A stretch of DNA of 5,640 nt, taken from positions 1 to 5,640 of the IMG/VR virus record IMGVR_UViG_3300045988_000385; one strand, given 5' to 3'. The translations under genes and the position numbers were made by a program. Source of the DNA: a virus. Below the pieces are notes generated by a model that was not told the DNA's origin, did not search any database, and saw nothing but the letters and a program-made list of their open reading frames with translations. Position 1 is the first letter of the stretch. Every line of letters begins with the position of its first letter. Below are positions 100-5,640 of this stretch, one piece after another.

Positions 100-110
100 A
101 GGCTTGTCAA
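82..110 (-). promoter_or_regulatory. Candidate sigma70-type promoter overlapping the terminator of the 65-aa gene
   Basis: On the - strand: TTGACA (110..105), a 17-nt spacer (104..88), then TAAACT (87..82). The -35 is 6/6 and the -10 is 4/6 with T1, A2 and T6 kept. Confidence 0.35.
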
Positions 111-119
111 GCCTCTTTT
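95..119 (-). terminator. Rho-independent terminator of the 65-aa gene
   Basis: The - strand reads AAAAGAGGCTT-GAC-AAGCCTCTTTT followed by further T (9 consecutive T, 98..90). The arms are 119..109 and 105..95, and the TGA stop (109..107) sits at the loop. Confidence 0.85.
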
Positions 120-304
120 GTGAATTTTTCCCAGTCGAATGTTTGAATGTCTCCAGTTTTTAGGTCCGTCCATTCAAGCGTTGTGTTGTAATTCCCTTCT
201 GCGTCGATGTAGTCTATTAGTTCGTAGTAGTTTTTGCCGCATTTTGCGCATCCGTAGATTTCGAGTTTTCCTATGGTGTTTTCGTTCAGTCTAGGTTTTC
301 TCAT
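107..304 (-). CDS. Hypothetical 65-aa protein (orphan) with its own promoter and terminator
   Basis: ATG at 304..302 and TGA at 109..107. A consensus promoter lies about 30 nt upstream and a terminator at the stop. The SD is weak (AGG, 9-nt spacer). The protein has one CxxC (CAKC), an acidic C-terminal half, no hydrophobic segment and no family I recognise. Confidence 0.7.
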   Translation of the reverse strand: MRKPRLNENTIGKLEIYGCAKCGKNYYELIDYIDAEGNYNTTLEWTDLKTGDIQTFDWEKFTKEA

Positions 305-332: not shown

Positions 333-371
333 ATTATATCACATTTTTGGAATTTGTCAAGAGTTTTTTTT
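333..371 (-). promoter_or_regulatory. Near-consensus sigma70 promoter with extended -10 and an upstream A-tract
   Basis: The - strand reads CAAAAAAAACTC-TTGACA(360..355), a 16-nt spacer, then TG-A-TATAAT (TG 341..340, -10 338..333). An A8 tract (371..364) lies just upstream of the -35, like an UP element. The predicted start is near 326, about 22 nt before the ATG at 304. Confidence 0.8.
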
Positions 372-388
372 GAAACTTTTTATTCGAG

Positions 389-454
389 GTCATGCGGTAG
401 GCGCGGTGCGCCGTGCGAAGAGCATGACGTGACTTTCCGGTTTCGCTCGCCGGA
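389..454. other. GC-rich compound hairpin element in an otherwise AT-rich spacer
   Basis: The outer stem is GTCATGC (389..395) with GCATGAC (422..428). It encloses an inner stem GGCGC (400..404) with GCGCC (408..412). A second hairpin pairs TCCGG (436..440) with CCGGA (450..454). Confidence 0.5.
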
Positions 455-499
455 CTGCCTTTAATCACAGTTTTCAACATTTTCAACACTTTCAACAGG

Positions 500-508
500 T
501 TTTCCACA
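500..508 (+). promoter_or_regulatory. DnaA-box match TTTTCCACA
   Basis: It matches the relaxed consensus TTWTNCACA at 9/9 positions. Confidence 0.55.
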
Positions 509-511
509 AAA

Positions 512-537
512 TGTTGCACAAAGGTTTTTGTGCATAT
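512..537. other. Hairpin formed by two inverted DnaA-box-like 9-mers
   Basis: TGCACAAA (515..522) pairs with TTTGTGCA (527..534), with loop GGTT. The arms lie inside TGTTGCACA (512..520, + strand, 8/9) and ATATGCACA (529..537, read on the - strand, 8/9). Confidence 0.6.
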
Positions 538-563
538 TGCTACACTTTCAACATTTCAACAAG

Positions 564-572
564 TTATCCACA
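564..572 (+). promoter_or_regulatory. Perfect consensus DnaA box TTATCCACA
   Basis: It is an exact match to the strict 9-mer consensus and sits inside the second copy of the 23-nt repeat. Confidence 0.6.
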
Positions 573-669
573 AAAGTATCAACATTAAAATTAGCCAAAA
601 AATATCGTTCCAAGGATAAAAATTCATAGTATTCAACATTTCAACACTCCCTATTACTACGACTACAAC

Positions 670-696
670 AAATTAATAATAAAATAATAATAATAT
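670..696. repeat. 27-nt A/T-only tract with (TAA)3-AA-(TAA)3
   Basis: The sequence is AAATTAATAATAAAATAATAATAATAT. TAA occurs at 674, 677, 680, 685, 688 and 691. Confidence 0.9.
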
Positions 697-737
697 CGTG
701 CGCGTGCGTGCGCGATTACGTGCGTGCGCGTGCATGT
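697..737. repeat. Two alternating pyrimidine-purine (CG/TG)n blocks, Z-DNA-prone, containing repeated 11-mers
   Basis: Bases 697..714 are 18 nt of perfect Y-R alternation and 717..737 are 21 nt. GTGCGTGCGCG lies at 704..714 and 720..730. CGTGCGCGTGC lies at 697..707 and 723..733. Confidence 0.85.
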
Positions 738-753
738 CAATATGAAATAAAAT

Positions 754-794
754 ACTCAGCCAAGTAGCTTTACTTGATAGTTACTTGGCTGAGT
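754..794 (-). terminator. Perfect 13-bp hairpin directly after the Rep stop, a candidate terminator or ssDNA structural element
   Basis: ACTCAGCCAAGTA (754..766) pairs with TACTTGGCTGAGT (782..794), with a 15-nt loop. On the - strand it is followed by ATTTTATTTCAT. The loop is long for a classic terminator. Confidence 0.5.
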
Positions 795-806
795 GACACC
801 AAAGTG

Positions 807-1826
807 TTAAAATACACCTTTGGCTTTGCTCATCTTCTTGGACATGGATGCTTCTTTGTCCTTTAGCTGCTCTGCGTATGACTTATCTGTTCCCGCGTTT
901 CTTTCGATTAGGGACGCAATGGCTTTTTCTTGCCGATACTGTTTGATTCTCCACGCTTTTTCAGGGTTCTCCGCTTCCAGTTTTCTCCAGTAGTATTCCG
1001 GTATGGCCGCTCTCTTGCCGTTGGTAAGCTGTATGTATCCCTGCTTCCAGAGTCGTTCTTGATGATCCTGGAACCATTGGTCTCCAAGTCCCGGTTTTCG
1101 GCTCATTGTGCAAAATGGTGGTATTAAACCCATTTTTTGGTAACGCTCTTTGTCGTTGCCGTATAGCTTTTTTGTCACGTACCCTGCAACATAATTATAT
1201 GTTTGTGGTACTGCTTGCGCAATGTCAACTGTACCTTGCCCCCAGATTTTGACCAGCTTATCACTTGTGTAGTGACCGTGTCTTGATAGCTTATGGATTG
1301 GTTTTAAGTCGTCAGGATGCCACCCATATAGTATCATGTGATAGTGTGGTCTTGCCGTGTTGTCTCCGTACTCTCCGGCTAAAAAGTACCTGAGAGGCTC
1401 TTTGACGGCCTTTCTGAGCCTTTTGATGAAGAGTTGGGTATCTTCCACGCTCAGCGTTTGCGTTGTTCTTGGACGCTCTGAGGTGCCTTTCCAGACGTTT
1501 ATTCCACCTTTGTAGATTTCTCCTGTTTCGGTGTCTTGCGTTGGTACATGGTCATCATCGTACGTTAGCGTGATAAACCAGATGCTTTCTTTGCTGTGTG
1601 CGTATGCTTCCAGCTCCATTCGTGTTGCCCAGTCCTTGCGTTTGCGCAGTCTGCACCCGGTACATTGTCCGCATGGTATCAACATTACATCTTTGCGGTA
1701 CATTAAATTTTCGTACGTCATTTTGGTCTTGTGTATCTCGTTAAAAGAGGCGAGTGAGTACACCCGCCCACTCGCCTCTCTGTCATGAGGTACATAAAAC
1801 CGGATTAGCGGTTTATTGCATCCCAT
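807..1826 (-). CDS. VP4: Replication initiation protein (HUH rolling-circle Rep), Microviridae VP4 type, 339 aa
   Basis: ATG at 1826..1824. Motifs are FITLTYDD, the HUH motif RPHYHMILYG, and paired tyrosines YVAGYVTKK (compare the Y-x3-Y active site of phiX174 gpA). The N-terminal cysteine cluster PCGQCTGCRLRK is as in gokushovirus VP4. The start overlaps the VP2 stop (TAATG). Confidence 0.95.
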   Translation of the reverse strand: MGCNKPLIRFYVPHDREASGRVYSLASFNEIHKTKMTYENLMYRKDVMLIPCGQCTGCRLRKRKDWATRMELEAYAHSKESIWFITLTYDDDHVPTQDTETGEIYKGGINVWKGTSERPRTTQTLSVEDTQLFIKRLRKAVKEPLRYFLAGEYGDNTARPHYHMILYGWHPDDLKPIHKLSRHGHYTSDKLVKIWGQGTVDIAQAVPQTYNYVAGYVTKKLYGNDKERYQKMGLIPPFCTMSRKPGLGDQWFQDHQERLWKQGYIQLTNGKRAAIPEYYWRKLEAENPEKAWRIKQYRQEKAIASLIERNAGTDKSYAEQLKDKEASMSKKMSKAKGVF

Positions 1827-2668
1827 TATTTAAGTTTTCCTTTCCAGAACTCTACGTTTTTGCTTCCGATGAAGTCTCTTCCTGGTTTGTATTCGAGTTC
1901 GTTTTTGGTTGGCTTTCTTCCTGCGCCGCCTGTGCCAGTGTTTAGGCTGTTGAGGCTATTAAAGACGTCCTTGAACTCGTTGAACGCTTTGTCTGCGCTT
2001 GTGTGCTGCCAACTTGTCGCGTCTCCGACCGCTTGCGCTGCGTTGTACCAGTTACTTTGGCTTTTGCTCCATGTGTTGTTATGGTTTTGGCTTACGCCTA
2101 GAGCGCTTGCACTTGCTGCACTACTGCTTGCCAGTCCCATACTTGCCCCGCTTATAGTGCCTTGTGCTCCACCCGGTGTACTTGCCCCGCCTTGCTGGTA
2201 TGCCAAAATAGGATTGATTCCCGCTTTTCGCATGTCTTCTACAGCTCTTTGATAAGCTGTGCTACTCATTTGCTCTTGCCATGCTCGATTTTTTGCTGCT
2301 TCTGCGCTGTTATACGCCATTGCTGCATTGTTGCTTATCTGGTTATATACGCCTTGCGTGATTGCTGCCATGGTGTTATAGCCCATCTGTTCGTATACGC
2401 TTCGCCGATTAAATTTCTGCTGGTTTTGCATGTTTGCTTGGATTGCTCCAAGCATACTATTCCAGTCTTGTAGATTTTGCCCTCTGTTTACGCCGCTTTC
2501 GCTGCTGCTTTGGCCTCCGCCTTGGCTATAGCTTTCGTTGTGCTGTTGGCTTCCTCCGCTGCTTTCGGTCATGTTTCCGCCTAGTAGTTTGTTTATCCCC
2601 CAACTTGCTACTGACGGTAGTACTGCCTTTCCGATTCCGAGCAATGCGCTTCCAAGTCCTGCTAGCAT
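1826..2668 (-). CDS. VP2: DNA pilot / minor capsid protein VP2, 280 aa
   Basis: I trimmed the tracked ORF 1826..3115 to the first ATG after the VP1 stop (2668..2666). The N-terminus is hydrophobic ([23 protein letters not shown]) and the middle is Q/N/S/G-rich. [29 protein letters not shown] matches the conserved microvirus VP2 core as I recall it. There is no clear SD next to the ATG. Confidence 0.88.
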
Positions 2669-2715: not shown

Positions 2716-4398
2716 TTAGTGATGGTCTACAAGGCCGGGAATGCTGTACATCGGCATTGGCCGTACACTTGTGTTGTCGATGACGGTATCCATGATAAAC
2801 TGTGGTTCGTTGTCCACTGCCAAGGTTCTCTGAATTTCGGAGTCTCCTTCCTTCATCCATGCCTGACTGAGGCTTGGCACTGTTTTGTAGTTGTCGCCAT
2901 AGTGCCAGCTGTCCAGTGTTCCCGTTGCGTTGCTGCGGAATTTGCCGCTGATTCTGTTCGGCTTCATCCGGTACTCGGCCCAAGCTTCCTGATAGCCGAA
3001 CGCCTGTTCGTCGGATGCCGTGCCGGTCAGATACAATTCCTTTTTCAAAATTGCTTGCTCTCCCAGGTTTGCGAAGACCGGGTAATAGAAATCCAGATTG
3101 GTTTTCCGACTCCACATCCGTTCGAGTCCCTGCTGGTAGGTGTGGTCATGCCTGATGCAGCACACTCCGATAACATAGCCGTGTTCCTCGAAACTCTTTG
3201 TAAACATACTTCCGTTGTACGGCGTAACGCTCACTGCTGCGGTGTTGCCCTGCGGGCTTTCCGTCGTCGTGCCGCTGGTCTGGATGACTTGACTCATGTT
3301 GATGGTGATACGCGTACCGCCCAGATACTCCGGAATCTGTACGGTTTTGTCCGAAATTTTGGTGTGGAAAAGCGAGTAAATCATCTCGCGGTAGCGACTG
3401 CCACCGCGTGCCAGCTCTTCGTAATATTTCTGTACCTGGAAAGCCTGTCTCAGCTGGTTGATGGTCGTGCTGTTTACGCTACTCATGTCCGCGTACAGGT
3501 CCATGCTTGTGTTGTAGTATGTACCGCCTTCTTTACTCCAACCATTGATTGTCAGGGGTGAGCCTTCTCCGTTGATTACGTTTGAGTTTTCTCCGTTGTA
3601 GGTGATGAGGTCGATCGCTTTTGTCTCTTTTTCTTCTCCAGGGTACTTGTATCCGTATATTGGCGCGTTTCCGCTGAGCGGAATTGTTACTGACTCTTTT
3701 GCTCTCTGCGGTGCTGGTAGTGCTGATGTAAAGTAGTCGTGGTACTTGTTGACCGGAAGAGGTCTGCCGCCTTTGTATGCTTGTTGTAAGGTTAGTTCGA
3801 GGTTTTCTTCTTCTAACTGGTCGTCGTATCTTACAGTTGCATCTCCTGTCGTGTTTATTGCTGGATTGTCTAGGTTTTGGTCTCTAAACCACTCATTCCA
3901 AATTTTAACGTATGCTCTGACAGGCAGTGCGTTGATGCTGAATTGGTTTTCTCCACTTTCTGGTTTTTTTATTACCTTTGTGGGTATTCCCATGTAGTCT
4001 AGAATGCTTCCTTCGTATGGAGCCAGTTCTGTTATTGAGTCTTTATCCTTTTTTATGACTAACTGTGGAATATTGTACTCTACTTGCTGTACCCAAGGGT
4101 TATCTGTTACTTCTCCCATAAACTCCTTCCAATGTTCCCAGATAATTCTATTTGGGACAAAGAAGTAATAGATATCCATATAACAGTTGTCCATGACTGG
4201 AAAAATTGGCGTAGTCATTCTCACGATGGCTGCTTGGTCAACGCTGAATGTGTCCCCTGGAAGTACTTCGTCTACATAGAAAGGGATAAGTTTTCCTGCG
4301 TTAAGCGTTAACTTGACGTCCTGCCGCCGTTTGAATCGACTTCGCGTGATGTCCAGGCGCGGTACCTGGTTGAATCCTGCATCTTTGTTTCTGTTCAC
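2716..4398 (-). CDS. VP1: Major capsid protein VP1 (F-like), 560 aa
   Basis: GTG start at 4398..4396, preceded by GGAGG with a 7-nt spacer. The N-terminal signature [33 protein letters not shown] is typical of microvirus major capsid proteins. The length is typical of gokushovirus VP1. The start overlaps the VP3 stop (GTGA). Confidence 0.97.
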
Positions 4399-4892
4399 TC
4401 TTTAGCCTCCGCTGTTTCTGCTGTCTTTGTTGCTTCGGGTTCTGCTTTTTTTTCTTGGTAAATACCCAGATTTTTTGCCCATTCGACTGTGCCAAACGAT
4501 GCAATGAATTTGTCCACGTCGTTGTCAAACTTGAGCTTGATGTCTTTCGGCACCTCGTCCCAGATTTGCTCTGCTCTCATCATGATGTTCTGGAGTTCGG
4601 CCAGATTCTGCGGTGCTTCGGTAAAGTCTTGGATGCCGCCCCCGATGTCCGGTTTGATACGTGCTGCAATGTCCGGGTCGATGCTTGCCCGCCGGATGAT
4701 GTTTTCCAGCTTGGTTTCTTCGAGATAGCTGTCTATCTCGGCCTGCTGGTCGATGGTCTGGTCGAGTCTTAGCACTTTTTCGCCTTTTTCGTTGCGTTCC
4801 CAGAGGTACGTGCGCCTTACGTTTTCCCCGGCTTCGGTCGGTTTTGCTGTCGCGGTTTCCCGCCAGTTACTTACAGAGCGAAACGCCATCAA
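4395..4892 (-). CDS. VP3: Internal scaffolding protein VP3, 164-165 aa
   Basis: The start is TTG (4892..4890, 7 nt after AAGGAG) or the adjacent ATG (4889..4887, 10 nt after it). DFTEAPQNLAELQNIMMRAEQIWDEVPKDIKLKFDNDVDKFI resembles the conserved VP3 core. It sits immediately upstream of VP1. Confidence 0.85.
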   Translation of the reverse strand: MMAFRSVSNWRETATAKPTEAGENVRRTYLWERNEKGEKVLRLDQTIDQQAEIDSYLEETKLENIIRRASIDPDIAARIKPDIGGGIQDFTEAPQNLAELQNIMMRAEQIWDEVPKDIKLKFDNDVDKFIASFGTVEWAKNLGIYQEKKAEPEATKTAETAEAKE

Positions 4893-5109
4893 AGATGTTC
4901 TCCTTATTCTCGATGAATTCGCCGGTTTTTTCGTCGAACTTTGCCAGACGTACCAACCGGTAGTCGCTCGGCGATTTGCTCATAATGTTGTGTTCGTCGG
5001 TGAGTGCAATTTTGAAGTTGCGCTCTGCCACCTTGTCTTCTCGCTCGGTGAAGATGGTGATATAGCCCATCACACAGTTGTCGAAGATGCCGTATACGTT
5101 GGTGCTCAC
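4867..5109 (-). CDS. Small conserved microvirus protein of unknown function, 80 aa
   Basis: GTG start at 5109..5107, 9 nt after GAGGAGG. It overlaps the upstream stop (GTGA). The pattern VYGIFDN...F...SPSDYRLVRLAKFDEKTGEF resembles a small nonstructural protein I recall from gokusho-type genomes (Y-x-I-x-D ... P-x-D-Y-x-L ... FD-x-x-TG). Confidence 0.75.
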   Translation of the reverse strand: MSTNVYGIFDNCVMGYITIFTEREDKVAERNFKIALTDEHNIMSKSPSDYRLVRLAKFDEKTGEFIENKENIFDGVSLCK

Positions 5110-5438: not shown

Positions 5439-5543
5439 TTAATCCTTGGGCTGGTTGCCCTCTACTGCGTGATAAATCTTGTCCAGCATAGCCAAGATTT
5501 TGCGAATGTTGTTAAACAGCGCGTTGATTTCCTTGAGGGTCAG
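5439..5543 (-). CDS. Speculative 34-aa ORF with a non-canonical (CTG or ATT) start behind a strong SD
   Basis: GAGGTGA (5556..5550) is followed in frame by TGA ATT GCT CTG and then 33 sense codons to TAA (5441..5439), 2 nt before the next ATG. There is no ATG, GTG or TTG in frame near the SD. The peptide would be (M)TLKEINALFNNIRKILAMLDKIYHAVEGNQPKD. Confidence 0.2.
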   Translation of the reverse strand: MTLKEINALFNNIRKILAMLDKIYHAVEGNQPKD

Positions 5544-5640
5544 AGCAATTCACCTCTTTCTAAAATTTATTTTGTATAAATGGTTTTGTAAAATAGCACT
5601 TCTGTGCTGTTTAACTGTTTTGAGTTTACTAAAAAAAAAG
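5542..5640. repeat. Terminal direct repeat, copy 2 (identical to 1..99)
   Basis: Same as copy 1; the period is 5,541 nt. Confidence 0.95.
5564..5592 (-). promoter_or_regulatory. Candidate promoter for the main gene block (also present at 23..51)
   Basis: On the - strand: TTTACA, a 17-nt spacer, then TAAATT. This would start transcription a few nt before the GAGGTGA SD. Confidence 0.35.

What the first reader, a model, noticed from the sequence alone, without database searches (positions are those of the whole stretch)
512..537. Hairpin with DnaA-box-like arms as a candidate complementary-strand origin
TGCACAAA (515..522) and TTTGTGCA (527..534) form an 8-bp stem with a GGTT loop. Each arm is part of an 8/9 DnaA-box-like 9-mer, so in the packaged ssDNA the stem would present a duplex DnaA box. 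ssDNA phages need a host-recognised structure to start complementary-strand synthesis. In phiX174 this is the PriA n-prime site hairpin, and in G4 it is primase-recognised hairpins in an intergenic region. A DnaA-dependent ABC primosome that assembles on a ssDNA hairpin carrying a DnaA box in its stem has been described by Masai and Arai. This hairpin, flanked by the box arrays, fits that mechanism. As far as I know that mechanism has not been assigned to a microvirus.
Basis: inference. Interest (0 to 1): 0.62.

Follow-up and report, generated by a model that had tools for sequence, protein, structure and literature searches.

The report
Facing DnaA boxes in phage origin
The small hairpin is real, but it is most likely two host-initiator (DnaA) binding sites facing each other inside a copy of a bacterial chromosome-origin module carried by this gut single-stranded-DNA phage. 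It is probably not a dedicated start site for second-strand synthesis.

Summary
The 8-bp palindrome TGCACAAA/GGTT/TTTGTGCA (515-534) is there as described. It folds as ssDNA (-7.7 kcal/mol). It is perfect in 61 of 65 relatives that share its context, with 8 different loops.

Its setting changes the reading. Bases 461-696 are a roughly 235-bp module built like a bacterial oriC: about 10 same-direction TTTTCMACA boxes, two boxes plus CTCC, DnaA-trios (CTA TTA CTA CGA CTA), then an A/T-only tract. The same box variant and layout occur in the dnaA-dnaN spacer of Ruminococcus/Oscillospiraceae genomes. Those origins also carry head-to-head box pairs.

The module occurs in at least 119 gokushovirus genomes, in either orientation relative to the genes (91 versus 28). 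About half of them keep the left box but replace the right arm with an unrelated palindrome. Only 6 of 9 positions of each box lie in the stem. No compensatory change was seen.

The link to DnaA is therefore strongly supported. The specific idea of a DnaA-box hairpin acting as complementary-strand origin is not. I found no publication linking DnaA boxes or oriC with microviruses. This scan has already reported the same oriC-like module on four other gokushovirus genomes.

The parts
461..520 (+). Left array of same-direction DnaA-type boxes: TTAATCACA 461, TTTTCAACA 471 and 480, CTTTCAACA 489, TTTTCCACA 500, TGTTGCACA 512
515..522 (.). Left arm of the palindrome (TGCACAAA). It is part of forward box 512-520.
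   Evidence: (I15)
523..526 (.). Loop or spacer GGTT. It varies among relatives: TGGT, GGTT, GACT, GAGT, TACT, TAGT, AGGA, TTGT.
527..537 (-). Right arm TTTGTGCA (527-534), inside reversed box ATATGCACA (529-537 on the minus strand). It is the only reversed box of the module.
545..584 (+). Right array of same-direction boxes: CTTTCAACA 545, ATTTCAACA 553, consensus TTATCCACA 564, GTATCAACA 576
630..646 (+). Two abutting boxes (TATTCAACA, ATTTCAACA) that head the unwinding unit
   Evidence: BUS definition in PMC8287927
647..671 (-). CTCC spacer, then CTA TTA CTA CGA CTA CAA CAA. The window minus strand carries the DnaA-trio sense (3'-GAT/AAT-5'). The plus strand carries the TnnT (DRE-like) sense.
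   Evidence: PMC10201434
672..696 (.). A/T-only tract in the position of the duplex-unwinding element
389..428 (.). GC-rich hairpin on the promoter side of the module (-8.8 kcal/mol). It stays in place in genomes where the module is inverted.
   Evidence: (I3)
697..737 (.). GC-rich CGTGCGCG repeats on the Rep side of the module. They stay in place in genomes where the module is inverted.
   Evidence: (D8)
754..794 (-). Strongest hairpin of the spacer (-13.9 kcal/mol), just after the Rep stop. It is a terminator-like alternative candidate for an ssDNA structure.
   Evidence: (I1)
333..360 (-). Consensus TTGACA-16-TGnTATAAT promoter for the 65-aa ORF 304..107, downstream of the module on the coding strand

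Best explanation
The palindrome is a head-to-head pair of DnaA-type boxes: forward TGTTGCACA at 512-520 and reversed ATATGCACA at 529-537, with their ACA ends 8 bp apart. It sits in the DnaA-assembly part of a bacterial-oriC-like module at 461-696.

The module probably acts on the double-stranded replicative form. Host DnaA would fill the roughly 10 boxes. The two boxes at 630-646 would nucleate a DnaA filament on the trios at 651-671, and the A/T tract at 672-696 would open for helicase loading. This would allow DnaA-dependent replication or maintenance of the RF, with DnaA sequestration as a side effect.

The ability of the two facing boxes to fold into an 8-bp hairpin in ssDNA is then a by-product of their arrangement.

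Shown: the sequence anatomy, its conservation, its likeness to real chromosomal origins, and its occurrence in both orientations. Inferred: DnaA binding, unwinding, action on the RF, and a Ruminococcus/Oscillospiraceae-type host.
For: 1. A scan of 185,579 species genomes for TTTCAACANTTTCAACANNTTTTCMACA gave 19 loci, of which 17 are bacterial. In 7 of them the array lies in the dnaA-dnaN spacer. Nine show boxes, then a GC cluster, then CTACTACTACTACTA, then AT-rich DNA. This is the basal unwinding system of PMC8287927 and PMC10201434.
2. The window has the same order at 630-696.
3. Eleven of the 17 bacterial loci carry a forward box facing a reversed box right after the direct array, with 3-9 nt between them (for example L098 GTTTTCAACAGTCCAATGTTGAAAAC). 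The window has 8 nt.
4. The module is present in at least 119 unique gokushovirus contigs whose Rep is 34-100% identical. The trio run CTACTACTACnnCTACAACAA is recovered across these lineages. The distance from the left arm to the trios is fixed at 136 bp in 60 of 61.
5. The module lies opposite to the genes in 91 genomes and on the gene strand in 28. This fits a duplex element.
6. The left box is kept (TTGCACAA) in genomes that have no complementary arm. It is therefore conserved for itself, not for pairing.
7. The strict box-spacer-trio pattern is at one place per genome in 11 of 151 genomes of the family of L098, with no hits for the reversed control.
Against: No binding or replication data exist. 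The arm boxes (TGCACA core) differ from the module's own commonest box (TCAACA). They match the classical consensus at only 8 of 9 positions.

The box period in the left array is 9-10 bp, not the 11 bp of E. coli oriC arrays (the E. coli figure is from memory).

Rolling-circle phages are not known to need DnaA, so the purpose of an oriC-like module is unexplained.

A cassette 93.5% identical occurs in lineages with 45% Rep identity. Part of the apparent conservation is therefore recent exchange, not long-term selection.

The stem is perfect in 61 of 65 genomes with a freely varying loop. That pattern is equally what a selected hairpin would show.
Confidence: 0.6

Rival explanations
1. First reader's model, adapted to the likely host. 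In the incoming ssDNA the hairpin offers a short duplex with DnaA-box sequence. DnaA binds it and recruits the helicase loader, helicase and primase (in Clostridia: DnaD, DnaB, DnaI, then the DnaC-type helicase and DnaG). This would start complementary-strand synthesis, as at the R6K A site.
For: - The hairpin is the only element kept in the ssDNA centroid of 440-660 and is stable for its size (-7.7 kcal/mol, z = -2.76).
- The stem is exact in 61 of 65 genomes while the loop varies.
- A palindrome tolerates inversion of the module.
- In 91 of 119 genomes the strand that carries the genes, and so by the rule for Microviridae the packaged strand, also carries the DnaA-trio sense (5'-TAG/TAA-3') that DnaA binds as ssDNA.
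- The reversed arm can alternatively pair with the perfect box at 565-575 in 10 of 11 positions, with the mismatch at the box's N position (I5).
Against: - Only 6 of 9 box positions are duplex.
- The hairpin is absent from about half of the module-bearing genomes, which otherwise keep every other part.
- There are four uncompensated stem changes and no compensated one.
- In 28 genomes the packaged strand carries the opposite sense of the trios.
- The hairpin lies 117 nt from the trios.
- It is the weakest of six viral-strand hairpins. Every lineage has a 10-16 bp GC-rich hairpin beside the module.
- The same box arrangement exists in bacterial chromosomes, where no ssDNA origin is needed.
Confidence: 0.12
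2. The palindrome is the duplex binding site of another dimeric protein, either a host origin-accessory or regulatory factor or a small phage protein. The site is placed between the two box arrays. Different phage lineages use different palindromes for different factors.
For: A small palindrome occupies the same place in both module types. Type A is TGCACAAA-N4-TTTGTGCA. Type B has the core GTCA-N3-TGAC, usually TTCGTCA-N3-TGACGAA, with loop TTT, AAA or TAA. The window also holds a weak bulged remnant of the type-B dyad (GTGCA TAT TGC-T-AC, -2.3 kcal/mol). The arm core TGCACA is not the module's usual box.
Against: Both arms still match the DnaA consensus at 8 of 9 positions. A CTTTGCACA box also occurs in bacterial DnaA-box clusters (L089, L093). 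No candidate protein was identified. The 65-aa ORF next to the module has no Pfam match.
Confidence: 0.15
3. The hairpin is a weak intrinsic terminator or attenuator on the coding strand. It would stop read-through from the Rep operon before the promoter of the 65-aa ORF.
For: The consensus scan lists 534..515 on the minus strand as terminator-like: 8 pairs, 3 G-C pairs, tail ACATTTTGTG.
Against: - The stem is A/T-rich, and the tail is simply the complement of box 500-508.
- A far stronger hairpin with a T-run (794-754, -13.9 kcal/mol) follows Rep directly.
- In 28 genomes the module is inverted, and in the L101-type genomes examined it lies just upstream of Rep.
Confidence: 0.05
4. The palindrome has no function of its own. 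It is a chance product of a repeat-rich, low-complexity region, carried along with a recently exchanged cassette.
For: A perfect 8-bp stem arises in 8% of shuffles of the spacer. Much of the sample is closely related. A 93.5% identical cassette is shared by lineages with 45% Rep identity.
Against: Cassettes that are only 77-82% identical overall (L100, L126, L134) still keep all 16 stem positions while their loops differ.
Confidence: 0.08

Closest known systems
[quoted passage not shown]
   Same: An ssDNA hairpin with DnaA-box sequence in its stem. In principle it could let DnaA load a helicase on SSB-coated ssDNA.
   Different: The A site holds a whole R1 box in the duplex, whereas here only 6 of 9 positions are paired. 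The ABC primosome is an E. coli DnaA-DnaB-DnaC-DnaG system. The likely hosts here are Clostridia with DnaD/DnaB/DnaI loaders. The hairpin is missing in about half of the relatives that keep the rest of the module.
Basal unwinding system (BUS) of bacterial oriC, for example B. subtilis incC boxes 6/7 plus DnaA-trios (PMC8287927, PMC10201434)
   Same: Two abutting boxes, a 4-bp GC spacer, at least 5 trios of 3'-GAT/AAT-5' sense and an AT-rich tract, in the same order and polarity (window 630-696).
   Different: It lies on a 5.5-kb ssDNA phage, not next to dnaA/dnaN. The boxes are the TTTTCAACA variant. The trio run ends in a virus-specific CTACAACAA.
Chromosomal oriC (dnaA-dnaN spacer) of Ruminococcus, Oscillospiraceae and other Clostridia MAGs (L090, L091, L092, L098, L099, L104, L105)
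   Same: The same box variant, a direct array followed by a head-to-head box pair, then the BUS. The facing boxes are 3-9 nt apart, against 8 nt here.
   Different: In the bacteria both facing boxes are TTTTCAACA, giving 10-bp arms. In the phage they are the TGCACA variant, and a second 4-box array is inserted between the dyad and the BUS. There is no long stretch of sequence identity, so this is not a recent capture from the sampled genomes.
Complementary-strand origins of ssDNA phages: the phiX174 n' (PriA) site, G4 oriC hairpins and the M13/f1 minus origin (textbook knowledge)
   Same: They are hairpins in a non-coding stretch of the packaged strand.
   Different: Those are recognised by PriA, primase or RNA polymerase, not DnaA. 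No sequence likeness was seen, and none has flanking DnaA-box arrays or trios.
DnaA boxes at plasmid and phage origins (P1 oriR, F, pSC101, R6K, RK2; from memory)
   Same: Mobile replicons that recruit host DnaA through boxes at their origin.
   Different: Those combine a few boxes with iterons for their own initiator. Here there is a full chromosome-type box array plus trios, and the element's own initiator is a rolling-circle HUH Rep.

Membership tests
A-site-type DnaA-box hairpin (ABC primosome) | Stable hairpin in the single strand that enters the cell | tested here: met
   It folds at -7.7 kcal/mol with z = -2.76 and is kept in the centroid of the 221-nt fold. As a palindrome it forms on either strand.
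A-site-type DnaA-box hairpin (ABC primosome) | A complete 9-bp DnaA box lies within the duplex stem (PMC6127211: the hairpin contains the R1 box) | tested here: not met
   The stem is 515-522 paired with 527-534. Box positions 1-3 of both 9-mers (512-514 and 535-537) are unpaired, and each box has one mismatch to TTWTNCACA.
A-site-type DnaA-box hairpin (ABC primosome) | DnaA-dependent helicase loading and priming on ssDNA | not testable with these tools
   This needs a reconstituted replication assay or an ssDNA-vector assay.
A-site-type DnaA-box hairpin (ABC primosome) | Kept, with pairing maintained, wherever the surrounding element is kept | tested here: not met
   The stem is perfect in 61 of 65 type-A genomes. 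Four variants are uncompensated. About half of the 119 module-bearing genomes have no box-containing hairpin.
Bacterial oriC basal unwinding system | A DnaA box within 16 bp of the trios and a second adjacent box (PMC8287927) | tested here: met
   TATTCAACA (630-638) and ATTTCAACA (638-646) lie 4 bp from the first trio. Each has 1 mismatch to the lineage's TTTTCAACA box and 3 mismatches to TTATCCACA.
Bacterial oriC basal unwinding system | At least three trios of 3'-NAN-5', with GAT preferred next to the box | tested here: met
   The complement of CTA TTA CTA CGA CTA reads GAT AAT GAT GCT GAT. Relatives mostly have GAT five times.
Bacterial oriC basal unwinding system | AT-rich unwinding tract beyond the trios | tested here: met
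   672-696 contains only A and T. The equivalent tract is present in relatives.
Bacterial oriC basal unwinding system | Chromosomal location beside dnaA/dnaN | tested here: not met
   The element lies between Rep and a 65-aa ORF of a 5.5-kb microvirus. It therefore works like an oriC module but is not a chromosomal oriC.
Bacterial oriC basal unwinding system | DnaA- and ATP-dependent strand separation | not testable with these tools
   This needs a strand-separation assay with the cognate DnaA.
Head-to-head DnaA-box pair of Clostridia-type oriC | A reversed box directly after a direct array, with ACA ends facing and a short spacer | tested here: met
   Eleven of 17 bacterial loci show this with 3-9 nt spacers. 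The window has 8 nt.
Intrinsic terminator | A G+C-rich stem followed by a T-run | tested here: inconclusive
   The consensus scan lists it (8 pairs, 3 G-C, tail ACATTTTGTG), but the stem is A/T-rich and the T-run is interrupted.

The most novel reading that the evidence does not exclude
The oriC-like module also works on the incoming single strand. The facing-box hairpin, or its alternative pairing with the perfect TTATCCACA box at 564-572, would give DnaA a duplex foothold. From there DnaA would engage the DnaA-trio sense carried by the packaged strand in most genomes. In inverted genomes DnaD would engage the TnnT sense instead. Either way the host helicase and primase would be loaded. That would be a DnaA-dependent complementary-strand origin, a kind not known for any virus.
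Probability: 0.12. Interest if true: 0.8.

Novelty: new variant of a known kind. Interest (0 to 1): 0.5.

Why it matters
How gokushoviruses start complementary-strand synthesis and amplify their replicative form is unknown. So are the hosts of most gut microviruses.

A chromosome-type DnaA module on a 5.5-kb rolling-circle phage would mean these phages plug into the host's own initiation control. That bears on several questions: persistence in the gut (plasmid-like carriage of the RF), interference with host replication by DnaA sequestration, and host prediction. The TTTTCAACA box variant points to Ruminococcus/Oscillospiraceae.

For the hairpin itself, the result narrows the question. It is probably a facing-box pair of that module, and a clean mutational test can separate the box function from the hairpin function.

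Tried and rejected
- Folding the whole spacer or 440-660 as ssDNA gave no excess structure (z = 0.08 and 0.50). The region as a whole is not a structured ssDNA origin.
- Rfam at a permissive threshold found only chance-level hits, all far below gathering scores.
- I looked for covariation in the stem. There are 4 variant genomes, all uncompensated. This is too few to decide and gives no positive support.
- Iterons for the phage Rep or a phage protein: rejected as the main reading. The boxes stay the same while Rep drops to 34% identity, and the same boxes sit in bacterial oriCs.
- Recent capture from a sampled host: not supported. There is no long identity to the bacterial loci, and the viral trio run has its own ending, CTACAACAA.
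- Literature searches for DnaA box, DnaA or oriC together with Microviridae, gokushovirus, microvirus or ssDNA phage gave nothing relevant.
- L138, a 17.6-kb viral contig with the pattern, has three boxes only and no module.
It was redone through a handle.

Full report
**What the window is.** The 5,640 bases are a circular gokushovirus genome of about 5,540 bp; bases 1-100 recur at 5541-5640. All recognisable genes lie on the window's minus strand:
- Rep/VP4 at 1826..807 (PF23343)
- pilot protein at 2668..1826
- capsid at 4398..2716 (Phage_F, E = 2e-145)
- scaffold at 4892..4395
- ORF5 at 5109..4867

By the established rule for Microviridae that the packaged strand has mRNA sense, the packaged strand is the window's minus strand. 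This is knowledge, not tested here. The finding lies in the 502-nt spacer 305-806 between Rep and a 65-aa ORF (304..107) that has its own consensus promoter.

**The observation.** The arms 515-522 TGCACAAA and 527-534 TTTGTGCA are perfectly complementary around GGTT. The 9-mers 512-520 TGTTGCACA (+) and 529-537 ATATGCACA (-) each miss TTWTNCACA by one base.

As ssDNA the hairpin has -7.7 kcal/mol (z = -2.76). It is the only pairing kept in the centroid of 440-660. The region as a whole folds no better than shuffles (z = 0.50 and 0.08).

A perfect 8-bp stem with a 3-8 nt loop turns up in 8% of shuffles of the spacer. Taken alone it is marginal.

The three outer positions (TGT and TAT) cannot pair, so the hairpin does not display a whole duplex box.

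**Relatives.** Megablast against GenBank phages showed that several gokushoviruses share nothing with the window at DNA level except 470-586 (H12-H18, 84-88% identity).

Eighty genomes fetched through Rep gave the same picture. Genomes whose Rep is 56-58% identical in protein still match 470-584 at 82-87% in DNA.

In 133 unique viral contigs I found the core of the element in 119.

**The context is a copy of a bacterial origin.** I scanned one genome per prokaryote species for TTTCAACANTTTCAACANNTTTTCMACA. This gave 19 loci, of which only two are microviruses. The other 17 are bacterial contigs, mostly Ruminococcus, Oscillospiraceae, Acutalibacteraceae and other Clostridia MAGs.

In seven of them the array lies in the dnaA-dnaN spacer (Pfam on L098 and L105; tblastn). 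Nine show a direct array of (G)TTTTCAACA boxes, then two boxes, a C-rich spacer, CTACTACTACTACTA and an AT-rich tract.

That is the basal unwinding system described for B. subtilis and other bacteria: two DnaA boxes next to DnaA-trios of consensus 3'-GAT-5'. The complementary strand carries TnnT repeats bound by DnaD (PMC8287927; PMC10201434).

The strict box-spacer-trio pattern occurs at one place per genome in 11 of 151 genomes of the family of L098, with no hits for the reversed control.

The window has the same thing in the same order:
- TATTCAACA and ATTTCAACA at 630-646
- CTCC
- CTA TTA CTA CGA CTA CAA CAA at 651-671
- an A/T-only tract at 672-696

Upstream of these lie about ten same-direction boxes at 461-584. 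The viral relatives keep all of it, including the trio run CTACTACTACnnCTACAACAA, down to 34% Rep identity.

TTTTCAACA is thus best read as the DnaA-box variant of these Clostridia, and the phage element as an oriC-like module. Searches of the held literature found nothing that links DnaA boxes or oriC with microviruses. After reaching this reading I looked up the scan's earlier notes. Four follow-up reports on other gokushovirus genomes describe the same module, so this is a repeat observation within the scan.

**Where the hairpin fits.** In 11 of the 17 bacterial loci the direct array ends with a reversed box facing the last forward box, 3-9 nt apart. An example is L098, GTTTTCAACA GTCCAA TGTTGAAAAC. 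The window's dyad has the same geometry: a forward box, 8 nt, then the only reversed box of the module. In a chromosome such a pair is a duplex DnaA site, not an ssDNA origin.

**Conservation of the dyad.** There are two types.

Type A is the window's. It occurs in the close lineage (Rep at least 86% identical) and in lineages with Rep at 45-49%. Of 65 unique genomes with that context, 61 have the exact stem. Four carry uncompensated changes (TGTACAAA, TATACAAA, TTTGTACA, TTTGTGTA). The loop takes eight forms. The distance from the left arm to the first trio is 136 bp in 60 of 61.

Part of this is recent exchange. L116 and L107 (Rep 45%) share a 93.5% identical cassette with the window. However, cassettes only 77-82% identical (L100, L126, L134) still keep all 16 stem positions.

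Type B makes up about half of the module-bearing genomes. It keeps the left box (TTGCACAA) but replaces the right arm by an unrelated small palindrome with core GTCA-N3-TGAC, usually TTCGTCA-N3-TGACGAA. No box-containing hairpin of 7 bp or more is then present, apart from one genome (L110) with a different box palindrome, TGTTGAAAAC/GTTTTCAACA.

So the left arm is conserved without a partner, and the hairpin is not a constant part of the module.

**Orientation.** The boxes lie opposite to the genes in 91 genomes, as in the window, and on the gene strand in 28. In L068 and L081 the core is inverted between GC-rich flanks that stay put.

An element that works in both orientations relative to the packaged strand is most simply a duplex element. 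A palindrome is blind to this, so the hairpin idea is weakened rather than refuted. In the majority orientation the packaged strand carries the trio sense that DnaA binds as ssDNA. This keeps a small door open for a single-strand role.

**Other hairpins.** On the viral strand the dyad is the weakest of six hairpins, at -7.7 kcal/mol against -8.8 to -13.9. Every lineage has a 10-16 bp GC-rich perfect hairpin beside the module, with different sequences in different lineages. These are terminator-like, and they are at least as good candidates for an ssDNA signal.

The consensus scan also flags the dyad itself as terminator-like on the coding strand. I rate that low, because the stem is A/T-rich and the tail is simply the complement of the neighbouring box.

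**Verdict.** The specific mechanism, an A-site-like hairpin as complementary-strand origin, fails two of its testable defining features: a complete box in the stem, and constancy across relatives. It has no covariation support.

My confidence in each reading:
- Facing DnaA-box pair of an oriC-like module acting on the replicative form: 0.6
- Site of another dimeric factor: 0.15
- DnaA-hairpin single-strand origin: 0.12
- Chance: 0.08
- Terminator: 0.05

DnaA binding, unwinding and the host assignment are inferences. The experiments that would settle them are listed under next steps.

Noticed in passing
window 389-428 and 697-737; L068 and L081: The roughly 260-bp core (arrays, trios and AT tract) is inverted in some genomes, while the GC-rich blocks on either side (CGCGTGCGCG-type repeats and a GC hairpin) keep their orientation. 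The flanks may be the recombination points of an invertible or exchangeable cassette.
   Followed up: partly
type-B genomes, e.g. L066, L101, L133: The palindrome that replaces the right arm, TTCGTCA-N3-TGACGAA, fits TGNCGAA on both arms. From memory, that is the consensus of the Spo0A '0A box', which in B. subtilis overlaps oriC DnaA boxes. This is untested and may be coincidence.
   Followed up: no
L116 and L107 versus window 470-682: Genomes with only 45% Rep identity share a 93.5% identical module. The cassette therefore moves between distant gokushovirus lineages.
   Followed up: partly
window 333-360 (minus strand) and 304..107: A perfect TTGACA-16-TGnTATAAT promoter drives a 65-aa ORF that has no Pfam match. 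The ORF is followed by a strong bidirectional terminator at 95-119. It sits directly downstream of the module, so DnaA occupancy could also affect this promoter.
   Followed up: partly
L089, L093, L103 (Ruminococcus MAGs): Dense TTTTCAACA/TTTTCCACA box clusters with facing boxes and a CTTTGCACA box, but no trios. They lie upstream of a TATAAT-type promoter and, in L093, away from dnaA. This looks like a DnaA-box cluster with a regulatory or titration role.
   Followed up: no
window 754-794: The strongest hairpin of the spacer lies just after Rep. Its loop reads ACTTGATA on the window plus strand, as another first-reader note says. That is the non-coding strand, so likeness to the phiX174 nick site would be on the wrong strand if the packaged strand is the coding one.
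   Followed up: no
L100 and L101: Two complete microvirus contigs are binned in Prevotella and Bacteroides MAGs, although their box variant matches Clostridia origins. This is probably mis-binning, which is a caution for host calls from MAG membership.
   Followed up: no
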